DNA from: a virus
Lineage: Duplodnaviria; Heunggongvirae; Uroviricota; Caudoviricetes
DNA: 8,403 nucleotides
Reading direction: 5' to 3' (one strand)
Virus record (IMG/VR): IMGVR_UViG_2802429224_000013
The first letter of the stretch is position 1. The number at the start of each line of letters is the position of its first letter. Position numbers and translations under genes: made by a program. Positions 1-7,919 of the stretch are shown here, one piece after another. The notes beneath the pieces were generated by a model that was given only the letters and a program-made list of their open reading frames with translations, was not told the origin of the DNA and ran no database searches.

Positions 1-488
1 AAAACAGCCATGTGTAACGCTCTGACCGTTACAAAAAGAGAAAGCGCCCCGTTGCCGGAGCGCCTTTGTGAACGAATTACCTGTAGCACCGCGATGTTTG
101 CTATATGGGTGAATTTTAGCGACAAGTTCGTTCAATGTGAAGGCGCTGATCACCGTTACTACAGCACGCCAGAAATGCAGAATATTTTGCTGCAAAATGC
201 CGTTGGCCACGCCGTCCGGAAAGCAAAAAATTTTGCTGGTGGCGCGACCGATACGATTTTTTCTGGTAGCCCGGTGCTGATCAACTTAGCTTGGATTTAT
301 GTGCAACATTGCAACTATTCCGACTTTAAGCTGAATGTGACTTTACCTATATCTTTAGAGGTGTGGTCGCGCTTGACCTCTATTTCACCATTTTGTAGCC
401 CTGCTACAAAAAAATATAAAAGTGTCAATGCTGCTGCAATCAGTAACCATTTTCTAGGAATATACATTCTTGATTTTACCCTTAATCA

Positions 489-662
489 TCAACCTTTTGG
501 CTCGATGCCCCGCTGTTGTAATTCTTTGCGGAGTACTCGTTTAATCCAAGTAGCTAATGAGGTGTCGCCGTCTGCTTTGGCTGCCTCCTCAAGTTGCGCT
601 CTAAATTCTTCTGGTAGTCGCATTTGGTATGGTGGCGATCGTTTCTCTAATGGTGTTGACAT
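489..662 (-). CDS. Ribbon-helix-helix (Arc/MetJ/CopG-like) DNA-binding protein, 57 aa; candidate repressor of the divergent operon
   Basis: Hand translation of the minus strand gives MSTPLEKRSPPYQMRLPEEFRAQLEEAAKADGDTSLATWIKRVLRKELQQRGIEPKG, with a beta-strand-like YQMRLP followed by two helices, the classic RHH layout. ATG at 662-660, stop as TCA at 489-491 on the plus strand, SD-like AAGGG 8 nt upstream. Not in the ORF track because it is shorter than the track cutoff. Confidence 0.6.
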   Translation of the reverse strand: MSTPLEKRSPPYQMRLPEEFRAQLEEAAKADGDTSLATWIKRVLRKELQQRGIEPKG

Positions 663-702
663 GGTAATTACCCTTAATTACTATAGTTACATGGTAATTA
701 CC
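656..702. promoter_or_regulatory. Divergent promoter/operator region with two copies of ACATGGTAATTACC spaced exactly 30 bp
   Basis: The 14-mer occurs at 659-672 and 689-702; its core GGTAATTACC is a perfect 10-bp palindrome. The first copy overlaps the start codon and RBS of the RHH gene. A consensus TTGACA sits at 656-661, with TACTAT 17 bp downstream (679-684) as a possible -10 for the plus-strand operon. Confidence 0.45.
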
Positions 703-792
703 ATTGTACTTACCATTACGCAAAAAACAACGCCCCGCAGTGCTGGAACACATGCAGGGCGTCTAACCAAACCGTTAAACGAGGTAACGATT

Positions 793-1161
793 ATGGCTGG
801 AACACAGCATACCCAAACTCACCCTAAATTTATATACACCTTCCTGGCGGTGCACCGTGATTGCATCGCTGACGGTAAAAATACTGTTCATGTAGCCGCC
901 GATACGCTGGTTGATGCCTGCGAGATGCTCAATGACATGGGCTATATCTCGGCAACATGGAAAGGGCGTGAAGAAAACACGTTGTTTATTCAGAAATGCG
1001 AAAACAATTTTATCTGGCGTTTTATCGCCCTGAGTACGGCACAACCGCGCGTGATTCACATCGAGGCCACCAGCGAACAGGAAGCACGCCAGCAATCTCC
1101 TGATGGCTGCGTGATGGTATTCGCTGCCCGTATTCGCCAGGAGGTGCATCATGTGCAATAA
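793..1161 (+). CDS. Hypothetical protein, 122 aa; first gene of the coupled plus-strand operon
   Basis: ATG at 793 preceded by GAGG at 781-784 (8-nt spacing). It is the 3' part of the 10..1161 track ORF. The stop at 1159-1161 overlaps the next gene's start within CAGGAGGTGCATCATGTGCAATAA. No family recognised. Confidence 0.6.
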   Translation: MAGTQHTQTHPKFIYTFLAVHRDCIADGKNTVHVAADTLVDACEMLNDMGYISATWKGREENTLFIQKCENNFIWRFIALSTAQPRVIHIEATSEQEARQQSPDGCVMVFAARIRQEVHHVQ

Positions 1162-1927: not shown

Positions 1928-2218
1928 ATGAAAAAGAAAAATTCTGGCTTTACTGCCAGCGGTCTCTCTCGGCCTGAAATCAGACACGGAGATATTTACC
2001 GCGACACCAGACGTGGGGGACGAGTGGTTATTCGTCACGTTACGCCAGGCAATATCACCTACCGCCGTGAGGCTTACGAATATGACTGCGTAATGCCGCG
2101 CCGTCAGTTTGAGCGTGATTTTATTCTGGTTGAAAACAAACAACAGGCAGTGGCAAGACGTGCAGCCACGAATATTAAAAAAATCCGGGCAATGTTGGTT
2201 GCGGGAGGTAAGAAGTGA
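1928..2218 (+). CDS. Hypothetical basic protein, 96 aa
   Basis: ATG at 1928 with AGGAAA 8 nt upstream. The stop TGA at 2216-2218 overlaps the GTG start of the helicase gene (GTGA). Confidence 0.55.
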   Translation: MKKKNSGFTASGLSRPEIRHGDIYRDTRRGGRVVIRHVTPGNITYRREAYEYDCVMPRRQFERDFILVENKQQAVARRAATNIKKIRAMLVAGGKK

Positions 2219-3627
2219 AAAACGCACCGAATTTAAAATATCAGCCGAAGGATAAATTCACCGAGGTAATCATTTTTGCCGGGACGGACGCTTACTCCCA
2301 TGCTCAACACTGGATTGAAAGCGAAGGACGAAAACACGGCGATAACGTACCACCTGTTTACCTGGGGCCGAAGCAACTGGCAGACCTGGCGAATATCCGC
2401 ATTATTGACGAGAAACGCCGCTTTGCGCGTGTCTATCTCGCGGGGGAGATCGAACCAATCCAGATCAATGCTATCGCTGAAAAACTGGCGCTGGCTGGCG
2501 TACAGGAGGCGAAATTATACAAAGGCATCACCGACCGGGAGCCGGAGAACTGGCGCGATTACCTGCAACGAATCCGCGAACAGCCAGAGCACGAAGAAAT
2601 GCTTACTGACGAGCAATACAGCCAGCGAAAAACCACACTACCAATGAGCATTGGATCGGAAGGATATGATTCACAGCTTAGCTATGTAGTTAAGGGCGTG
2701 ATTCCGGCTAATTCGCTATGTAGCACATACGGTGCGAGCGGTTCTTATAAGTCGTTCCTTGCGTGTTCGTGGGCATGTCATGTTGCTACCGGTATCCCGT
2801 GGGGAGGTCGCAGGGTTGTACATGGTGCGGTTATGTATGTCGTTGGTGAGGGCGGGATCGGTGTTCCTCGTCGTATCAAGGCATGGGAACTGGTGAACAG
2901 TGAGCAGGTGAAAAATCTGTACCTGGTAAATCGTCCAATTTTTCCGGCCGCACCGAGTGATGTTGATGAAATGGTTATTGCTGCCCGACAGGTTGAGCTG
3001 GAAACGGGTAAACCTGTACGCATGATTATTCTGGATACTCTGGCGCGTTGCTTTGGTGGCAGCGATGAAAATGATGCGCGGGATATGGGGGCATTTGTCC
3101 ATGGATGTGACGAACTGAAACGGCGTACAGGCGCTACAGTGCTGGTAATTCACCATTCCGGCAAGGATGAAACAAAGGGTGCGCGCGGTTCCAGTGCGTT
3201 TCGTGCAGCACTGGATGCAGAGTACCGGATACGCCGTGAAGGTGCAGGCAGTGAAGCCCTGGTTATCGCATGTACCAAGATGAAGGATGCGGAGGAACTG
3301 AAAGAAATGGCTTGCGATTTGCGCGAGGTTGAGCTTTTCAAGGATGAAGGCGGGGAGTTAATCACGTCGTTGGTGCTGGAGGATAAACCCCGTCCGCCAG
3401 TTGAACTGGAGCGCATCGAGTACGTTGCTAACAAGACAGAGAATCACGCCGCGCTATGGGGCTGTATCCGTTCACGCACGCAACGCGGAGATAAATGCAC
3501 TATCCCGTTGTTGCGCGATGACATGAAAAAGCTGGGGTATGAGATGAAAAACTTCCGACGCTGGCTGTACAAGCTGGAAGGTGACGGCGTAATCGCTATT
3601 GACGATGATGACGTGCGCCCACTGTAA
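2215..3627 (+). CDS. RepA-like / DnaB-like P-loop ATPase (AAA_25-type), candidate replication initiator-helicase, 470 aa
   Basis: GTG start at 2215 with GGGAGG at 2203-2208. Recognisable motifs: P-loop-like YGASGSYKSF, Walker-B-like RMIILDTLARCFGG, and a VLVIHHSGKD motif typical of RepA/RecA-fold helicases. Roughly 150 aa of N-terminal and 100 aa of C-terminal extension may carry origin-binding function. Confidence 0.85.
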   Translation: MKNAPNLKYQPKDKFTEVIIFAGTDAYSHAQHWIESEGRKHGDNVPPVYLGPKQLADLANIRIIDEKRRFARVYLAGEIEPIQINAIAEKLALAGVQEAKLYKGITDREPENWRDYLQRIREQPEHEEMLTDEQYSQRKTTLPMSIGSEGYDSQLSYVVKGVIPANSLCSTYGASGSYKSFLACSWACHVATGIPWGGRRVVHGAVMYVVGEGGIGVPRRIKAWELVNSEQVKNLYLVNRPIFPAAPSDVDEMVIAARQVELETGKPVRMIILDTLARCFGGSDENDARDMGAFVHGCDELKRRTGATVLVIHHSGKDETKGARGSSAFRAALDAEYRIRREGAGSEALVIACTKMKDAEELKEMACDLREVELFKDEGGELITSLVLEDKPRPPVELERIEYVANKTENHAALWGCIRSRTQRGDKCTIPLLRDDMKKLGYEMKNFRRWLYKLEGDGVIAIDDDDVRPL

Positions 3628-4015
3628 AAAGTGAGGCGTAAAAGTGAGGGGGACAGGGAATATTTAAAAATCACCCCTGTTTCCCTCACTTCTCAACCTG
3701 TATATATACCAAAAAGTGAGGAGTTAATTTTGTACTAAAAAAACAAAGAGTTAAGTGTATTCGCATTTTCTATTTTTGAATATAGGGCAAATAATAAATG
3801 TGAGTAGTAAATGTGAGGAATAGTGAGTAAATAGAATAAATTCTCTGGAAATTACAAACAGGTAAAAAATAAAACAAATAAAGATTTTAACTAAAACTTA
3901 ACTATTTGCCTCATATTTGCGTATATATAGGGGTTTTAAAGTGAATACTTAAAAATACATTTAAAATCATATTGTTATTAACTTCATAAATTCTCACTGT
4001 GTAGCAGGTGAGGAA
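3627..4015. repeat. Iteron-containing, AT-rich origin-like region immediately downstream of the helicase gene
   Basis: At least eight copies of (A)AAGTGAGG / TGTGAGK in both orientations: 3631-3636, 3644-3649, inverted 3684-3689, 3716-3721, tandem 3800-3805/3813-3818/3823-3828, inverted about 3992-3997, and 4008-4013. An imperfect 15-bp inverted repeat lies at 3644-3690. The 3840-3990 stretch is very AT-rich, as expected for an unwinding element. Confidence 0.55.
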
Positions 4016-4038
4016 TTAAAAAATCAGGAATGTTAAAA

Positions 4039-4812
4039 ATGAAAACAGAACGTTACATACCTCAGGGTATGACTTACATAGAGCGTGAAGAACTGAAAAG
4101 TTTTGCGACATCATGTGGACTACGCGGCGATATTCAGAGCCTTACCAGAACTCTGATAATGATTGCGCACTGGATGAGGCAGGGTAAGCCAGTGAGCTTC
4201 ACAGAATACGCCAGCCAGTGGACAGAGGCACAGCGCGAACGGGACGACGGTAATCACTCAACGCCTGAAATGGCGAAGCAATGGCCTTTCAGTGGCAAAC
4301 GATGCATTTATCCCAGGTGCTCCGATTACTACCCATACGGAACGGAAAGAGAACATCAGGATGACGAAACGGAAATTAAACACGCAGTAACGGTAATTCT
4401 TGCCAAATACCCGTTTTTTAACCGCAATGGTCTTGTTCGGTATAGCCGTGACAAGCCATGGGAGCACCCGCTTGATTATGTCTGTTTTATGGAGGAGGCA
4501 AAAAGCTGTTTGCGCTGGATAAGGGAGAACAATCTTACCGACTGCAAAATTGCATCATTCCCCGGTAAAAATCCGACATCCTACGGCCTGAAACATTGTG
4601 TTGAACGGGCGAATCAAATAAGAGCAAAGGCAAACGGAAAACCCACGGAGCCGACGTATATCACAAACGGTGCTCTAATTGCCGCAATGGTCGCGGCTGG
4701 TTATCAGATAAAGCCTGAAGGAAGGATGAATTGCCGATTCAATATTTCGCGTAAGCAGCTTAAGAGTGTATTGAGCGGGGAATCTTACAAATCAGGAGAG
4801 TGGACGATATAA
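4039..4812 (+). CDS. Hypothetical protein, 257 aa, no family recognised; cysteine-containing, first gene of an accessory operon
   Basis: ORF track 4030..4812. The preferred start is the ATG at 4039 (AGGAA 8 nt upstream); the ATG at 4030 is the alternative. It follows a long AT-rich, promoter-like region and is followed at 12-24 nt by the FinO-like gene. Several Cys pairs (KRCIYPRCS, CFMEEAKSC) are present but no catalytic motif is evident. Confidence 0.7.
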   Translation: MKTERYIPQGMTYIEREELKSFATSCGLRGDIQSLTRTLIMIAHWMRQGKPVSFTEYASQWTEAQRERDDGNHSTPEMAKQWPFSGKRCIYPRCSDYYPYGTEREHQDDETEIKHAVTVILAKYPFFNRNGLVRYSRDKPWEHPLDYVCFMEEAKSCLRWIRENNLTDCKIASFPGKNPTSYGLKHCVERANQIRAKANGKPTEPTYITNGALIAAMVAAGYQIKPEGRMNCRFNISRKQLKSVLSGESYKSGEWTI

Positions 4813-4835
4813 CAGAAACATCTATGGGGCAAAGC

Positions 4836-5366
4836 ATGACTAAGCTGACCATTAACAGAAAACCAAAAGGCATTTACGGCACGCCGCAGAAAACGACGCA
4901 GGCGGCGCAAGAGCAGGATAAAACCACGTCGGCGCATAAAGTGATGCCCGGTAACCAGAAAGCGCAGCAGAAGCCCACAGGGGCGACACCGTGGCGGCAT
5001 ATGACCAAACGCCAGCGCAAAAACCGCAGGCGCGTTAACCGCCTCACTGAGTTGTGGCCTGACTTATTCAGCCGGGAAGCACCGAAGCCGCTTAAGGTGG
5101 GGATATTCGACGACCTGATGCAGGATCTCGCCGTCAGGGGGCTGGCATTCGGGCCAGGGGCATTGCGTGCGACGCTGGCATCTTATGCGCAGTGTCCGCG
5201 CTATTACCGCGCCTTAATGGCTGGTGGGGTACGCTACGACCTGAAAGGCCAGCCGTGCGGCGAGGTGACACCACAGGAACAACAGGACGCAGAAACGCGG
5301 CTGGTGGCGCTGAATGAGAAGCGCAAACGTCAGCGCCGGGCAGCAAAGGAGAAAACAGGCGCATGA
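4836..5366 (+). CDS. ProQ/FinO-family RNA-binding protein (RNA chaperone-like)
   Basis: The segment PLKVGIFDDLMQDLAVRGLAFGPGALRATLASYAQCPRYYRALMAGGVRYDLKGQPCGEVTPQEQQDAETRL matches the conserved ProQ/FinO N-terminal domain pattern (PLKIGIF..DL, LR.AL..Y..S.RY, R.DL.G.PCGE), and the C-terminus is basic. Start is uncertain between ATG 4824, ATG 4836 (GGGG 6 nt upstream, preferred) and the track's GTG 4800. Confidence 0.85.
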   Translation: MTKLTINRKPKGIYGTPQKTTQAAQEQDKTTSAHKVMPGNQKAQQKPTGATPWRHMTKRQRKNRRRVNRLTELWPDLFSREAPKPLKVGIFDDLMQDLAVRGLAFGPGALRATLASYAQCPRYYRALMAGGVRYDLKGQPCGEVTPQEQQDAETRLVALNEKRKRQRRAAKEKTGA

Positions 5367-5650
5367 TTCACGACAGCAAAGCGGAAGCACTGGAAGCGCG
5401 TGGTCTGTACCGGAGAGCGGCGGCGCGGTGGGCTGAGGTCATCATGCTGGCGAATGATGACAAGGCACGGGAACAGGCGGCAAAACGTCGCGCGGAATGT
5501 ATCCGCAAGGCAGCACGCCCACCAGCAAGGCAGGATAATTTCGGAGAGATGCGCGAAACCATCAGCCGGGCACATGCCGGGATGGGATTACATCAGCCCA
5601 ATGGTAAGGCATTCAGGAAATACCCTGGATCGAAAAATTGCAGTCAGTGA
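5363..5650 (+). CDS. PerC-family-like small transcriptional regulator, 95 aa
   Basis: The N-terminal AEALEARGLYRRAAARWAEVIML fits the PerC-family signature as I recall it (LE.RGL.RRAA.RW.EV). The ATG overlaps the FinO stop (ATGA), and AAGGAG lies upstream. Confidence 0.6.
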   Translation: MIHDSKAEALEARGLYRRAAARWAEVIMLANDDKAREQAAKRRAECIRKAARPPARQDNFGEMRETISRAHAGMGLHQPNGKAFRKYPGSKNCSQ

Positions 5651-5654
5651 CGGA

Positions 5655-5680
5655 GGCCGGGATTTTTCCCGGCTTTTTTG
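5655..5680 (+). terminator. Rho-independent terminator closing the 257-aa/FinO/PerC operon
   Basis: A perfect 7-bp GC-rich stem (GCCGGGA, loop TTTT, TCCCGGC) is followed by TTTTTT at 5674-5679, starting 5 nt after the PerC stop. Confidence 0.7.
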
Positions 5681-5693
5681 TGCCAGTAAAAAA

Positions 5694-5726
5694 CCCGCAG
5701 CCAGAAGTGTTGCGGGCTTTGTTTTT
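5694..5726. terminator. Second hairpin, possibly a bidirectional terminator
   Basis: Stem CCCGCA (5694-5699) pairs with TGCGGG (5711-5716) around an 11-nt loop. It is flanked by an A-tract upstream and a T-rich run downstream, so it could terminate on either strand. Confidence 0.4.
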
Positions 5727-6025: not shown

Positions 6026-6064
6026 TGGTCGTGATTTTTTGGTGAAAAAAGAGAGGTGGTAAAA

Positions 6065-6649
6065 ATGCCAGCAAGCAAAGAAGATTTGCGATTAAAACTG
6101 ATGGAGGTGGTTAACGCTCTGTCAGAGTCGCAGGGCAGCACTCCGCAGGAGATTATCGAAATTCTGAATGCGATCCCCGCACAGGATTTCACAAAAGCGG
6201 ACGAGGATGACGCGAATAAAAACATCGTCGCGTCAGTCGAAGATGAATCCTCACTGGCAGAAGCCCAGGCTAAAGCGGATTCCGCATACAGCAATATGGG
6301 CCGTCGCGCTCCAGCCCCGTTTGCTGGTGAAAAGTCGATGGATTACCGCAAGCGTGCATTAATTGGTGCACAGAAGCTGGCTAAAAAATTCAGTGATGTG
6401 GATATTCGTTCCGTTTCAGATTCTGCAACGCTGGCGGTGCTGGAAGATCAGATTTACCAGGCTGCAAAAGACAGTGTTCAGTGGGCTGTGGAAAATACGC
6501 CGGGCTATTTGCGTAAAACCGTAAGAATGGATGAAGCCGGACGGCGGATTACTGAATATCAGGGGGATCCGAATAACTGGCTTAGTGCTTTCAAAATCCC
6601 TCCCCGTCGCCTGGTTAAAATTAACGTTGCAAGCCTCGCGGGGGCATGA
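6065..6649 (+). CDS. Hypothetical protein, 194 aa, acidic N-terminal half; no family recognised
   Basis: ATG at 6065 with a strong SD (GAGAGGTGG) upstream; track ORF 6056..6649. Sits in the operon with the Nu1-like gene, so a morphogenesis or packaging role is possible but unproven. Confidence 0.65.
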   Translation: MPASKEDLRLKLMEVVNALSESQGSTPQEIIEILNAIPAQDFTKADEDDANKNIVASVEDESSLAEAQAKADSAYSNMGRRAPAPFAGEKSMDYRKRALIGAQKLAKKFSDVDIRSVSDSATLAVLEDQIYQAAKDSVQWAVENTPGYLRKTVRMDEAGRRITEYQGDPNNWLSAFKIPPRRLVKINVASLAGA

Positions 6650-6713: not shown

Positions 6714-7385
6714 ATGCTTTTAACAGAAATTGAGGCGGCAAAGCAGATTCGGGACGGTCAGCTACCGTCGCCTTATCAGTTTTCCAACATGTGGCTGATT
6801 AACCTGCGTATCACAGGAACCGGAATGGCCTATCGCGCCGAAGAAAAAGAATTTGTCTGGCGTTCACCGCAAACTTATCTCAATCCGCAGTTCCTGGAAC
6901 GTTGCGCCGGAGTACCCGTCATCATCGACCATCCCGAAAGCAAAACCCTTGAAGACGTGGGCGAACGGTCGCGCATTATTGGCACCGTCATGTTGCCGTA
7001 TATTCGCGGTGACGAGGTGTGGGGCGTATGCCGGATTTACGGGCAGGAAATCATCGATTACATCCAGAAAGCCCGGGGGGAGATATCCACCAGCCCGTCG
7101 GTTGTGTTTTGTGGTGCGTCCGGTGGGGCAGAAGTTCCTGATGTAATGGGCGAGGACAATTTTTTTATTGAGGGTACGCCATTTCTTATCGATCACGTTG
7201 CACTCGTACCGTTGGGCGTATGGGATAAGGGCGGGAAACCATCAGGTGTGGAAGTAACAACGCCGACAGAAGAAGAACAGCTCGCCGGAATGGTTCGTGA
7301 AGTTATTGATGCGGCCTGCAAGCCAGCCCTGGAAAAACTGGAAGAAATATCCGGGCGGCTGGCTCAACTGGAAAAAGAAGGGTGA
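6714..7385 (+). CDS. Hypothetical protein, 223 aa, with a C-terminal coiled-coil-like tail
   Basis: ATG at 6714 with a GGGGGA SD. The C-terminus (EEEQLAGMVREVIDAACKPALEKLEEISGRLAQLEKEG) looks helical or coiled-coil. No family recognised. Confidence 0.7.
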   Translation: MLLTEIEAAKQIRDGQLPSPYQFSNMWLINLRITGTGMAYRAEEKEFVWRSPQTYLNPQFLERCAGVPVIIDHPESKTLEDVGERSRIIGTVMLPYIRGDEVWGVCRIYGQEIIDYIQKARGEISTSPSVVFCGASGGAEVPDVMGEDNFFIEGTPFLIDHVALVPLGVWDKGGKPSGVEVTTPTEEEQLAGMVREVIDAACKPALEKLEEISGRLAQLEKEG

Positions 7386-7391
7386 GTCATA

Positions 7392-7919
7392 ATGCTAATG
7401 AGCAAGGCAGAATATGCCAAACACAAAGGCGTAAGCCGCCAGACAGTTTACGACTGGATCGAGAAAGGCGAAGTGATCATGTCTGGCAAAAAAATTGATG
7501 TGGAGGCGACAGAGCAGCGGAACAGCCCACCGGAACAAGGGAAAGACACCGTTTCTGAAATGTGGCCAGAAAGAACGCTGGAAATGACGTGGGGCGAGTT
7601 CTGGAAAGCAGTTAAGGCCAGAGACGGTAAAGACCCAGCGCCAGTAACTGACGATGATATAGAGCAGCGCGTGCGGAATGCAGCCGAAGAATTAGGCTGG
7701 GAAGTGCAATTTCTTGATGGTGGTGCTATCTGCCTTGAGGATTGCGACGGACAGCATTACTTTGAGCAATACGATTTGCTGGGTAATGCTCGTCTGGCAA
7801 TTCGTATGCTGCGTTGCGAACTCTGCTATGTTGCAGGTGATTATCCCGATGAACTGGAATCATGGAGTGAAGCCGGGCTAAACGCCCTGGCTGAATGGGA
7901 AAAATCAGACCATCAATGA
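7392..7919 (+). CDS. Protein with N-terminal AlpA/Nu1-type helix-turn-helix, 175 aa; candidate small-terminase-like or packaging-redirecting DNA-binding protein
   Basis: The N-terminus (MSKAEYAKHKGVSRQTVYDWIEKGEVI) resembles the winged-HTH start of lambda gpNu1 as recalled (KKQLADIFGASIRTIQNWQEQGMPV) and AlpA/excisionase-type HTHs. Its size is close to Nu1, and it is followed directly by a complex repeat array. Confidence 0.6.
   Translation: MLMSKAEYAKHKGVSRQTVYDWIEKGEVIMSGKKIDVEATEQRNSPPEQGKDTVSEMWPERTLEMTWGEFWKAVKARDGKDPAPVTDDDIEQRVRNAAEELGWEVQFLDGGAICLEDCDGQHYFEQYDLLGNARLAIRMLRCELCYVAGDYPDELESWSEAGLNALAEWEKSDHQ

What the first reader, a model, noticed from the sequence alone, without database searches (positions are those of the whole stretch)
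3720..5680. Self-contained three-gene operon: unrecognised 257-aa protein, ProQ/FinO RNA chaperone, PerC-like regulator
The three genes are tightly linked (12-24 nt gap, then an ATGA overlap). The operon is preceded by a roughly 300-bp strongly AT-rich region and closed by a textbook intrinsic terminator. It sits between the replication origin and the packaging-like module, which is the kind of position where satellites and PICIs are known to carry accessory or anti-phage cargo. Pairing an RNA chaperone with a protein of no recognisable family suggests an RNA-based regulatory or interference mechanism rather than a structural function. This is my best candidate for an undescribed system in the window.
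Basis: partly seen in the sequence, partly recalled or inferred. Interest (0 to 1): 0.8.

Follow-up and report, generated by a model that had tools for sequence, protein, structure and literature searches.

The report
PICI backbone genes plus one cargo gene
The three genes are real, but they are not one system: two are standard backbone genes of E. coli phage satellites, and the third is an optional, uncharacterised cargo gene whose conserved half usually sits in phage DNA-replication modules.

Summary
Three co-directional ORFs lie at 4039-4812 (257 aa, "g1"), 4836-5366 (ProQ/FinO) and 5363-5650 (PerC). They are preceded by an AT-rich region and followed by two intrinsic terminators.

The interpretation does not hold. 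The window is an E. coli phage-inducible chromosomal island (PICI), and the AT-rich region is its iteron-bearing replication origin. FinO-PerC is a conserved backbone pair, found in 226 of 5,426 complete E. coli genomes, usually directly after the origin or after an SSB gene. g1 occurs full-length in only 12 genomes. It is a cassette-like indel (window 4055-4823). Related islands with the same RepA gene and a homologous origin carry nothing or unrelated cargo there. g1 homologues also occur in other islands without FinO or PerC.

g1 matches no Pfam, NCBIfam or PADLOC model and is not a Tai homologue. It fuses two domains that also exist as stand-alone proteins. The C-terminal domain has a winged-helix-like predicted fold. 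In phages and satellites it typically lies beside DNA polymerase A or primase-helicase genes, and in some PICIs g1 overlaps an SSB gene.

Best reading: g1 is an optional replication-module accessory of unknown precise role, sitting in the known post-pri accessory slot. This is an ordinary element with one uncharacterised gene.

The parts
2215..3627 (+). RepA-like replicative helicase (PICI Rep). This is context, not part of the finding.
   Evidence: Pfam AAA_25 E = 5.9e-44. Annotated 'helicase RepA family protein' in the homologous island.
3627..4020 (.). PICI replication origin: an AT-rich core flanked by direct and inverted (A)AGTGAGG iterons.
   Evidence: GC is 0.235. Iteron copies lie at 3629, 3642, 3714 and 4006, with variant and inverted copies elsewhere in the region. 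This matches the E. coli PICI ori layout described in PMC6092414.
4039..4812 (+). g1, a 257-aa two-domain protein of unknown function. The N-domain covers about residues 5-100 and the C-domain about residues 110-248.
   Evidence: No Pfam, NCBIfam or PADLOC hit. phrog_9576 matches the C half. AF2 gives pLDDT 88 for the whole protein and 92 for the C-domain alone. Each half occurs as a stand-alone protein.
4055..4823 (.). The variable cassette, meaning the segment that is absent or replaced in otherwise homologous PICIs.
   Evidence: L033 has 40 nt in place of 4055-4823. L034 keeps g1 up to window 4212, then carries 2.76 kb of other cargo. In both, homology resumes at 4824.
4836..5366 (+). ProQ/FinO-domain protein (alternative start at 4824). 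A conserved PICI backbone gene.
   Evidence: PF04352 E = 1.3e-23. The closest solved structures are ProQ NTD 5nb9 (E = 7.5e-12) and FinO 1dvo. It scores below the NCBIfam FinO and ProQ cut-offs. Found with PerC in 226 genomes.
5363..5650 (+). PerC-family small regulator. Its start overlaps the FinO stop (ATGA).
   Evidence: PF06069 E = 2.2e-32. The 4-nt overlap recurs in L002, L024, L025, L026 and L033. PerC-like genes in PICIs are documented (PMC6092414, PMC11773190).
5655..5680 (+). Intrinsic terminator 1.
   Evidence: RNA fold -18.7 kcal/mol, z = -3.2, followed by U6.
5694..5726 (+). Intrinsic terminator 2.
   Evidence: Found by the terminator scan. Folds at -14.2 kcal/mol, z = -2.4.

Best explanation
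The region is a stretch of an EcCICFT073-type E. coli PICI, not a stand-alone system.

**Layout.** The order is Rep helicase, then iteron origin, then an optional cargo slot, then a conserved ProQ/FinO-PerC pair with overlapping stop and start codons, then terminators, then the packaging module.

**FinO and PerC.** These are backbone regulators of the island. The FinO-domain protein presumably binds terminator-type hairpins of island RNAs. PerC presumably acts as a small transcription factor. Both roles are inferred from family membership only.

**g1.** This gene is independent cargo in the slot. It fuses two domains that each circulate on their own in phage and satellite early or replication modules.
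- The C-domain has a winged-helix-like predicted fold.
- It carries an invariant SYGxKH...E...NG surface.

**Most likely role of g1 (inferred).** It is a nucleic-acid-binding accessory that is co-expressed with the replication genes. It would act on replicating or incoming element DNA, for example by helping the replisome, the origin or SSB-coated DNA. This makes it comparable to the SSB gene that occupies, or shares, the same slot in sister PICIs.

**Shown versus inferred.** The architecture, the cassette boundaries, the lack of co-occurrence, the domain structure and the genomic contexts are shown. DNA binding and a replication role are inferred.
For: **The element is a PICI.** Its closest relative is about 11.8 kb, inserted in yifB, and carries an integrase, an AlpA-like HTH gene, Rep, DUF2213 and a TerS-like gene. 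The origin has iterons.

**FinO-PerC is backbone.**
- It is present in 226 genomes.
- It follows Rep and ori directly in L002, L024, L025 and L033.
- It follows SSB in L003 and L026-L028, one of which (L027) carries its own capsid, protease and portal genes.

**g1 is a cassette.**
- Full-length g1 is in 12 genomes.
- The indel boundaries are precise, at 4055 and 4823/4824.
- L034 has alternative cargo in the same place.
- The g1 family occurs without FinO/PerC in L004 and L005.

**Domain fusion.**
- 906 library proteins match at E <= 0.001. Of the sequences collected match the N half only and 99 the C half only.

**Replication context of the C-domain.**
- It sits directly after primase-helicase genes in Streptococcus phage Javan526, L012, L019, L081 and L106.
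- In 73 IMG/VR loci, 51 (15 of 32 clusters) have a PolA, primase-helicase, PD-(D/E)XK nuclease or SNF2 helicase gene within three genes.

**Replication context of the N-domain.** A stand-alone copy lies between primase and SSB in an Erwinia satellite.

**Link to SSB.** The g1 stop overlaps the SSB start, followed by FinO, in L087 and L091.

Against: - There is no sequence similarity to the C-termini of Rep proteins.
- L033 has the same RepA gene and a homologous origin but lacks g1, so g1 is not needed for that replicon to exist.
- Lying inside a replication module does not prove a replication function. From my own knowledge, T7 places host-takeover and anti-RecBCD genes between its polymerase and exonuclease genes.
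- Some C-domain neighbours are orphan methyltransferases, restriction enzymes or Lar-like genes. That pattern fits an anti-defence role equally well.
- The slot is a documented site for immunity cargo.
- No experiment bears on any of this.
Confidence: 0.55

Rival explanations
1. g1 is a single-gene anti-phage or helper-interference cargo, carried in the PICI accessory slot next to pri and acting independently of FinO and PerC.
For: - The slot is the one in which the Tai immune genes of PICIs were found (PMC11364771).
- g1 is present in only some islands and is exchanged for other cargo.
- It is absent from current family libraries, as new defence genes often are.
Against: - g1 is not a Tai homologue: hhalign probability is 0.5% against phi80 TaiEcA.
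- No PADLOC model matches.
- Both domains are mostly carried by phages themselves, inside replication modules.
- The same slot carries SSB, and g1 overlaps SSB in some PICIs.
Confidence: 0.2
2. g1, or at least its C-domain, is an early anti-defence or host-takeover protein. It would protect incoming or replicating element DNA from restriction or nucleases.
For: - C- and N-domain genes neighbour orphan N6/N4, Dam-type and C5 methyltransferases, a Lar-type restriction-alleviation gene, a SacI restriction enzyme and a type I R-M locus.
- They sit in early regions together with SSB. From my own knowledge, this resembles the leading regions of plasmids.
Against: - There is no similarity to known anti-restriction families in Pfam.
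- The dominant neighbours are polymerase, primase, nuclease and helicase genes rather than defence-related genes.
- The invariant polar surface across very diverse hosts argues for a universal ligand such as DNA rather than a host-specific target. This last point is inference.
Confidence: 0.15
3. One reading: the 257-aa protein, FinO and PerC form one self-contained, RNA-based regulatory or interference system.
For: - The three ORFs are tightly spaced on one strand, with no terminator between them and terminators after them.
- An Enterobacter island also has a g1-derived gene directly before a ProQ/PerC gene.
Against: - Co-occurrence fails: 12 genomes against 226.
- g1 is cleanly absent or replaced in islands with homologous flanks.
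- g1 homologues occur without FinO/PerC.
- FinO-PerC occurs without g1 in most PICIs sampled.
- g1 shows no RNA-related domain.
Confidence: 0.04

Closest known systems
EcCICFT073-type Gram-negative PICIs (Fillol-Salom et al. 2018, PMC6092414)
   Same: - The gene order is integrase, alpA, pri/rep, iteron origin, then regulators including PerC, then the packaging-redirection module. Integrase and alpA are seen in the homologous island, not in the window.
- The element is about 12 kb and sits at a specific chromosomal site.
   Different: - The Rep here is a RepA-type helicase rather than a primase fusion.
- An extra 257-aa gene sits between the origin and FinO.
PICI accessory region adjacent to pri (Tai immune systems, PMC11364771)
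   Same: - g1 occupies the same position, immediately downstream of pri/rep.
- The content of the position varies between islands.
   Different: - g1 has no detectable homology to TaiEcA.
- No anti-phage activity is known for g1.
- Its relatives sit in replication modules.
Plasmid FinO and FopA RNA chaperones, and chromosomal ProQ
   Same: Gene 2 has a bona fide FinO domain. From the family review (PMC9977716), such proteins bind terminator hairpins of antisense or small RNAs that control replication or transfer of mobile elements.
   Different: - It scores below the NCBIfam cut-offs for both FinO and ProQ.
- It has a long basic, Gln-rich N-terminal extension.
- It is satellite-encoded and its stop overlaps the PerC start codon.
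- No RNA partner is known, and I found no paper on it.
PerC / Pch regulators of the LEE island
   Same: The PF06069 match is full length. PICI-encoded PerC homologues are documented, with activating, neutral or repressing effects on LEE1.
   Different: The target in this island is unknown. Its conserved position before the packaging module suggests a role in the island itself. That is speculation.
Winged-helix DNA-binding domains, for example the P4 alpha origin-binding domain 1ka8
   Same: The g1 C-domain core (helix, helix, beta-hairpin) superposes at 2.7-3.5 A over 57-78 residues on the best hits. It sits next to a replicative helicase gene.
   Different: - There is no profile similarity to Rep C-termini.
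- It has an extra N-terminal helical part and a distinctive SYGxKH motif.

Membership tests
Phage-inducible chromosomal island (Gram-negative, EcCICFT073 type) | Integrase and an AlpA-type regulator at the left end, about 10-15 kb, inserted at a specific chromosomal site, with no lysis or tail genes. | tested here: met
   The closest relative (95% identity over 97% of the window) is about 11.8 kb. It lies between the two halves of yifB and carries a tyrosine integrase and an HTH regulator. No tail or lysis genes are annotated.
Phage-inducible chromosomal island (Gram-negative, EcCICFT073 type) | A replication initiator followed by an iteron-bearing, AT-rich origin. | tested here: met
   RepA-like AAA_25 helicase. 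AAGTGAGG iterons flank a region of 23.5% GC.
Phage-inducible chromosomal island (Gram-negative, EcCICFT073 type) | Induction, replication and packaging by a helper phage. | not testable with these tools
   This needs helper-phage induction experiments. A TerS/Rpp-like HTH gene (7392-7919) and a DUF2213 protease-like gene are present.
ProQ/FinO RNA chaperones (gene 2) | A FinO domain above the Pfam gathering score. | tested here: met
   PF04352 scores 83.5 bits against a cut-off of 27. PDB hits are ProQ, FinO, NMB1681 and RocC.
ProQ/FinO RNA chaperones (gene 2) | Equivalence to FinO or ProQ proper. | tested here: not met
   NCBIfam FinO scores 64.6 bits against a cut-off of 136. ProQ scores 57.6 against 127.
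PerC family (gene 3) | A full-length PerC domain. | tested here: met
   PF06069 scores 111.6 bits and covers profile positions 1-89 of 90.
   - Full-length g1 is in 12 genomes and FinO-PerC in 226.
- Both g1-less and FinO-less arrangements exist.
Tai (tail assembly inhibition) immune proteins | Homology to TaiEcA (phi80 orf63). | tested here: not met
   BLASTP E = 0.39. hhalign probability 0.5%.
Known anti-phage defence systems (PADLOC-DB v2) | A match to any defence-protein model. | tested here: not met
   No hit for g1, FinO or PerC at E <= 1.
Winged-helix nucleic-acid-binding domains (g1 C-domain) | A helix-turn-helix plus beta-hairpin wing fold with a significant structural match. | tested here: inconclusive
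   [not shown]

The most novel reading that the evidence does not exclude
Two unstudied things may be hiding in an ordinary island.

1. The g1 C-domain defines a widespread family with no Pfam model. 906 library proteins match the g1 family profile at E <= 0.001, most of the best 150 through the C half. It could be a new replisome-associated or DNA-protecting factor of phages and satellites. It lies next to PolA or primase-helicase genes and has an invariant SYGxKH...E...NG motif. In Enterobacterales it is fused to a second orphan domain.

2. The conserved FinO-PerC pair may be a post-transcriptional plus transcriptional switch of the PICI life cycle, with an unknown RNA partner.
Probability: 0.3. 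Interest if true: 0.55.

Novelty: new member of a known kind. Interest (0 to 1): 0.3.

Why it matters
As an "undescribed three-gene system" it does not matter, because that reading is wrong. What remains is modest but usable.

- **The cargo slot now has mapped boundaries.** In this PICI lineage the right edge is fixed at the FinO start codon, which helps in mining satellite cargo.
- **g1 points to an orphan protein family.** The C-domain is conserved from Streptococcus phages to marine phages and lies inside replication modules. Nobody appears to have studied it.
- **The FinO-PerC pair has no reported function for the FinO partner.** It is conserved in hundreds of E. coli genomes. FinO-family proteins classically control replication or transfer of mobile elements through antisense RNAs, so this is a reasonable target for RIP-seq.

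Tried and rejected
**Homology and fold searches**
- Pfam, NCBIfam and PADLOC on g1 gave nothing. Only phrog_9576, of unknown function, matched the C half.
- PDB sequence searches with g1 and with both domain profiles gave nothing significant.
- Pfam scans of 50 C-domain members and of 10 representative hits gave only scattered chance hits.
- Foldseek against BFVD gave one unnamed hit. The afdb50 library was unavailable.

**Hypotheses tested and rejected**
- g1 is a Tai homologue: rejected.
- The C-domain is a detached copy of the Rep C-terminal DNA-binding domain: no profile similarity.
- The 74-76-aa genes upstream of g1 homologues are detached N-domains: rejected.
- Stand-alone N- and C-domain genes sit next to each other (a Rosetta-stone pattern): not seen in the 73 viral loci.

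**Other negative results**
- Rfam on the window gave only two sub-threshold hits: the tandem terminators and a symR-like hit at E = 0.13.
- tblastn of g1 against 50,697 phage genomes gave only two weak Streptococcus phage hits.
- Literature searches for FinO or ProQ in E. coli PICIs found nothing relevant.
- The first attempt at search for related loci, using the 50-sequence alignment, failed. A 14-sequence subset worked.
Full report
**1. Observation**

The ORF list shows three co-directional ORFs on the + strand.
- The first runs 4030/4039-4812.
- The second runs 4800/4824/4836-5366.
- The third runs 5363-5650.

In the closest RefSeq relative the corresponding genes are 774, 531 and 288 nt. 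That fixes the starts at 4039 and 4836. The sequence shows TAA at 4810-4812, ATGs at 4824 and 4836, and an ATGA overlap at 5363-5366.

GC drops to 23.5% between 3701 and 4000. Just after the PerC stop there are two hairpins with U-tails.
- The first, at about 5655-5680, folds at -18.7 kcal/mol, z = -3.2.
- The second, at 5694-5716, folds at -14.2 kcal/mol, z = -2.4.

Gene 2 is a FinO-domain protein (PF04352, E = 1.3e-23). Gene 3 is a PerC-family protein (PF06069, E = 2.2e-32). Gene 1 ("g1") has no Pfam, NCBIfam or PADLOC match. Every descriptive element of the finding is therefore correct.

**2. What the window is**

The window matches E. coli chromosomes in 1,611 of 5,426 complete genomes. 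Only 7 of them cover at least 80% of it.

In strain ETEC1748 the homologous element is about 11.8 kb and splits yifB. Its genes, in order, are:
- a tyrosine integrase
- an HTH regulator
- AntA/B
- Icd-like
- DUF4222
- a RepA-family helicase
- a hypothetical protein (g1)
- ProQ/FinO
- PerC
- small ORFs
- DUF2213
- a TerS-like protein

This is the architecture of Gram-negative phage-inducible chromosomal islands, in which PerC homologues are already documented (PMC6092414; PMC11773190).

The AT-rich stretch contains (A)AGTGAGG iterons in direct and inverted orientation around the AT core. It is therefore the island's replication origin, not simply a promoter region.

**3. The three genes are not one unit**

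Searched separately, the FinO-PerC segment (4836-5680) is found at 80% coverage or more in 226 genomes. g1 is found at 80% or more in only 12.

Sampled islands show the following arrangements after Rep and ori:
- FinO directly in L002, L024, L025 and L033
- SSB, or a small ORF plus SSB, then FinO in L003 and L026-L028, one of which (L027) encodes its own capsid, protease and portal

Two elements are the most informative, because they share the window's RepA gene and have a homologous origin.
- **L033.** Homology to the window runs to position 4054 and resumes at 4824. Only 40 nt replace the 769 nt in between, and the g1 start codon survives as a 19-codon stub.
- **L034.** Homology runs to 4212, which keeps the first 174 nt of g1. 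It is then replaced by 2.76 kb of unrelated cargo: ORFs of 121 and 74 aa, an SDH-family Clp-fold serine protease, and an IS remnant. Homology resumes at exactly 4824.

g1 is therefore a cassette in a variable slot whose right edge is the FinO start.

Conversely, about 130 genomes carry a 245-aa g1 homologue, matching at about 77-79% nucleotide identity over the N-terminal third. In the two such islands inspected, it follows a DUF5906 or primase-helicase gene and neither FinO nor PerC is present.

**4. What g1 is**

The full-length family is small, with 22 full-length homologues and several fragments. It is confined to Enterobacterales, including E. coli, Raoultella and Xenorhabdus.

A profile search of 1.84 billion representative proteins returned 906 hits at E <= 0.001. 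Among the best 150, almost all match only one half of g1. Of the sequences collected:
- 44 proteins, mostly 85-130 aa, match only the N half
- 99 proteins, mostly 110-170 aa, match only the C half
- 23 enterobacterial proteins have both halves

*Conserved residues.* In g1 numbering, S181, Y182, K185, H186 and N210 are invariant in both the family and the C-domain alignments. E189 is invariant within the g1 family and nearly invariant across the C-domain family. G211 is nearly invariant across the C-domain family.

*Exclusions.* g1 is not related to phi80 TaiEcA. It is also not related to the C-termini of Rep proteins.

**5. Genomic context of the two domains**

*C-domain next to primase-helicase genes.* Stand-alone C-domain genes lie immediately after such genes in:
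- Streptococcus phage Javan526
- a Mu-portal-type phage, after D5_N/DUF5906
- a small integrative element, after Prim-Pol/D5_N
- L081
- L106, after a VapE/NrS-1-type gene

*C-domain in environmental phages.* In 73 IMG/VR loci, the commonest arrangements are PolA, then C-domain, then PD-(D/E)XK nuclease, then SNF2 helicase, or PolA, then SprT-like, then PD-(D/E)XK, then C-domain, then SNF2. Overall, 51 of 73 loci, or 15 of 32 clusters at 60% identity, have one of these replication genes within three genes.

*C-domain minority contexts.* A few copies lie next to methyltransferases, a SacI restriction enzyme, an integrase, or a type I R-M locus.

*N-domain.* A stand-alone copy lies between primase and SSB in an Erwinia satellite. 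Others lie in prophage early regions.

*Link to SSB.* In PICIs L087 and L091 the g1 stop overlaps the start of an SSB gene, and FinO and a PerC-sized ORF follow.

**6. Interpretation**

The best-supported reading has three parts.
- FinO-PerC is a conserved regulatory pair of the PICI backbone.
- g1 is optional cargo in the post-Rep slot, with no functional tie to FinO or PerC.
- g1 is most likely a nucleic-acid-binding accessory of the replication module, in the same class as the SSB that shares the slot.

The last point is inference from context and a weak fold match. Two rivals remain open. The first is a stand-alone immunity or interference gene, because the slot hosts such genes. The second is an early anti-defence protein, because of the methyltransferase and R-M neighbours and because small host-takeover genes can sit inside replication modules. 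The three-gene RNA-based system is effectively excluded by the distribution data.

**7. Novelty and score**

The element, its origin, PerC and the accessory slot are all known. The FinO-like gene is annotated but apparently unstudied in PICIs: no relevant paper was found. g1 and its two domains are orphan families.

I classify this as a new member of a known kind, with modest interest (0.3). The residual value lies in two places: the orphan C-domain family linked to replication modules, and the unexplored FinO-PerC pair.

Noticed in passing
window 6056-6649 and 6714-7385: Both proteins match the same PHROG (phrog_6216, 545 aa), but in swapped order. The upstream gene matches profile positions 405-544 and the downstream DUF2213 gene matches 115-328. 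RefSeq labels the first one 'NUDIX hydrolase' in the relative, yet no Pfam NUDIX hit was found here.
   Followed up: no
L034 6100-8096 (E. coli L7_E1373_ETEC, NZ_LR882990): This is alternative cargo in the same slot: ORFs of 121 and 74 aa plus a 298-aa 'SDH family Clp fold serine proteinase', followed by an IS remnant. None matches a PADLOC model. It may be another uncharacterised cargo set.
   Followed up: partly
window 4869-4885 and 5028-5044, minus strand: Two terminator-like hairpins with T-runs lie antisense to the 5' part of the FinO gene. They recur in L002. They could mark an antisense RNA for the FinO-like protein, or they could be chance. L002 carries a 96.6%-identical copy of this segment, so their recurrence there says nothing.
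   Followed up: partly
window 3642-3691: A 24-nt-arm inverted repeat (79% complementary, 2-nt spacer) lies directly after the RepA stop. It is built from inverted iteron copies, AAGTGAGG and CCTCACTT. It is probably a Rep-binding element of the origin.
   Followed up: no
L015 7470-8093 (Enterobacter mori): A single called 207-aa product carries both PerC and ProQ Pfam hits. It lies directly after an N-terminally deleted g1 derivative of 158 aa. It is either a fusion or a gene-calling artefact.
   Followed up: no
window 10-1161: The 383-aa ORF is very likely spurious. It overlaps the small genes annotated in relatives, namely the YlcI/YnfO-family gene on the minus strand at 489-662 and the Icd-like gene.
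   Followed up: no
window 726-798, minus strand: There is a sub-threshold Rfam match to the SymR antitoxin RNA, at 26 bits against a gathering score of 61, E = 0.13. It is probably chance.
   Followed up: no
L040, L047, L058, L061 and other IMG/VR loci: Environmental phages share a conserved module of PolA, C-domain protein, PD-(D/E)XK nuclease and SNF2 helicase, sometimes with a SprT-like gene. The C-domain protein has no Pfam family.
   Followed up: partly
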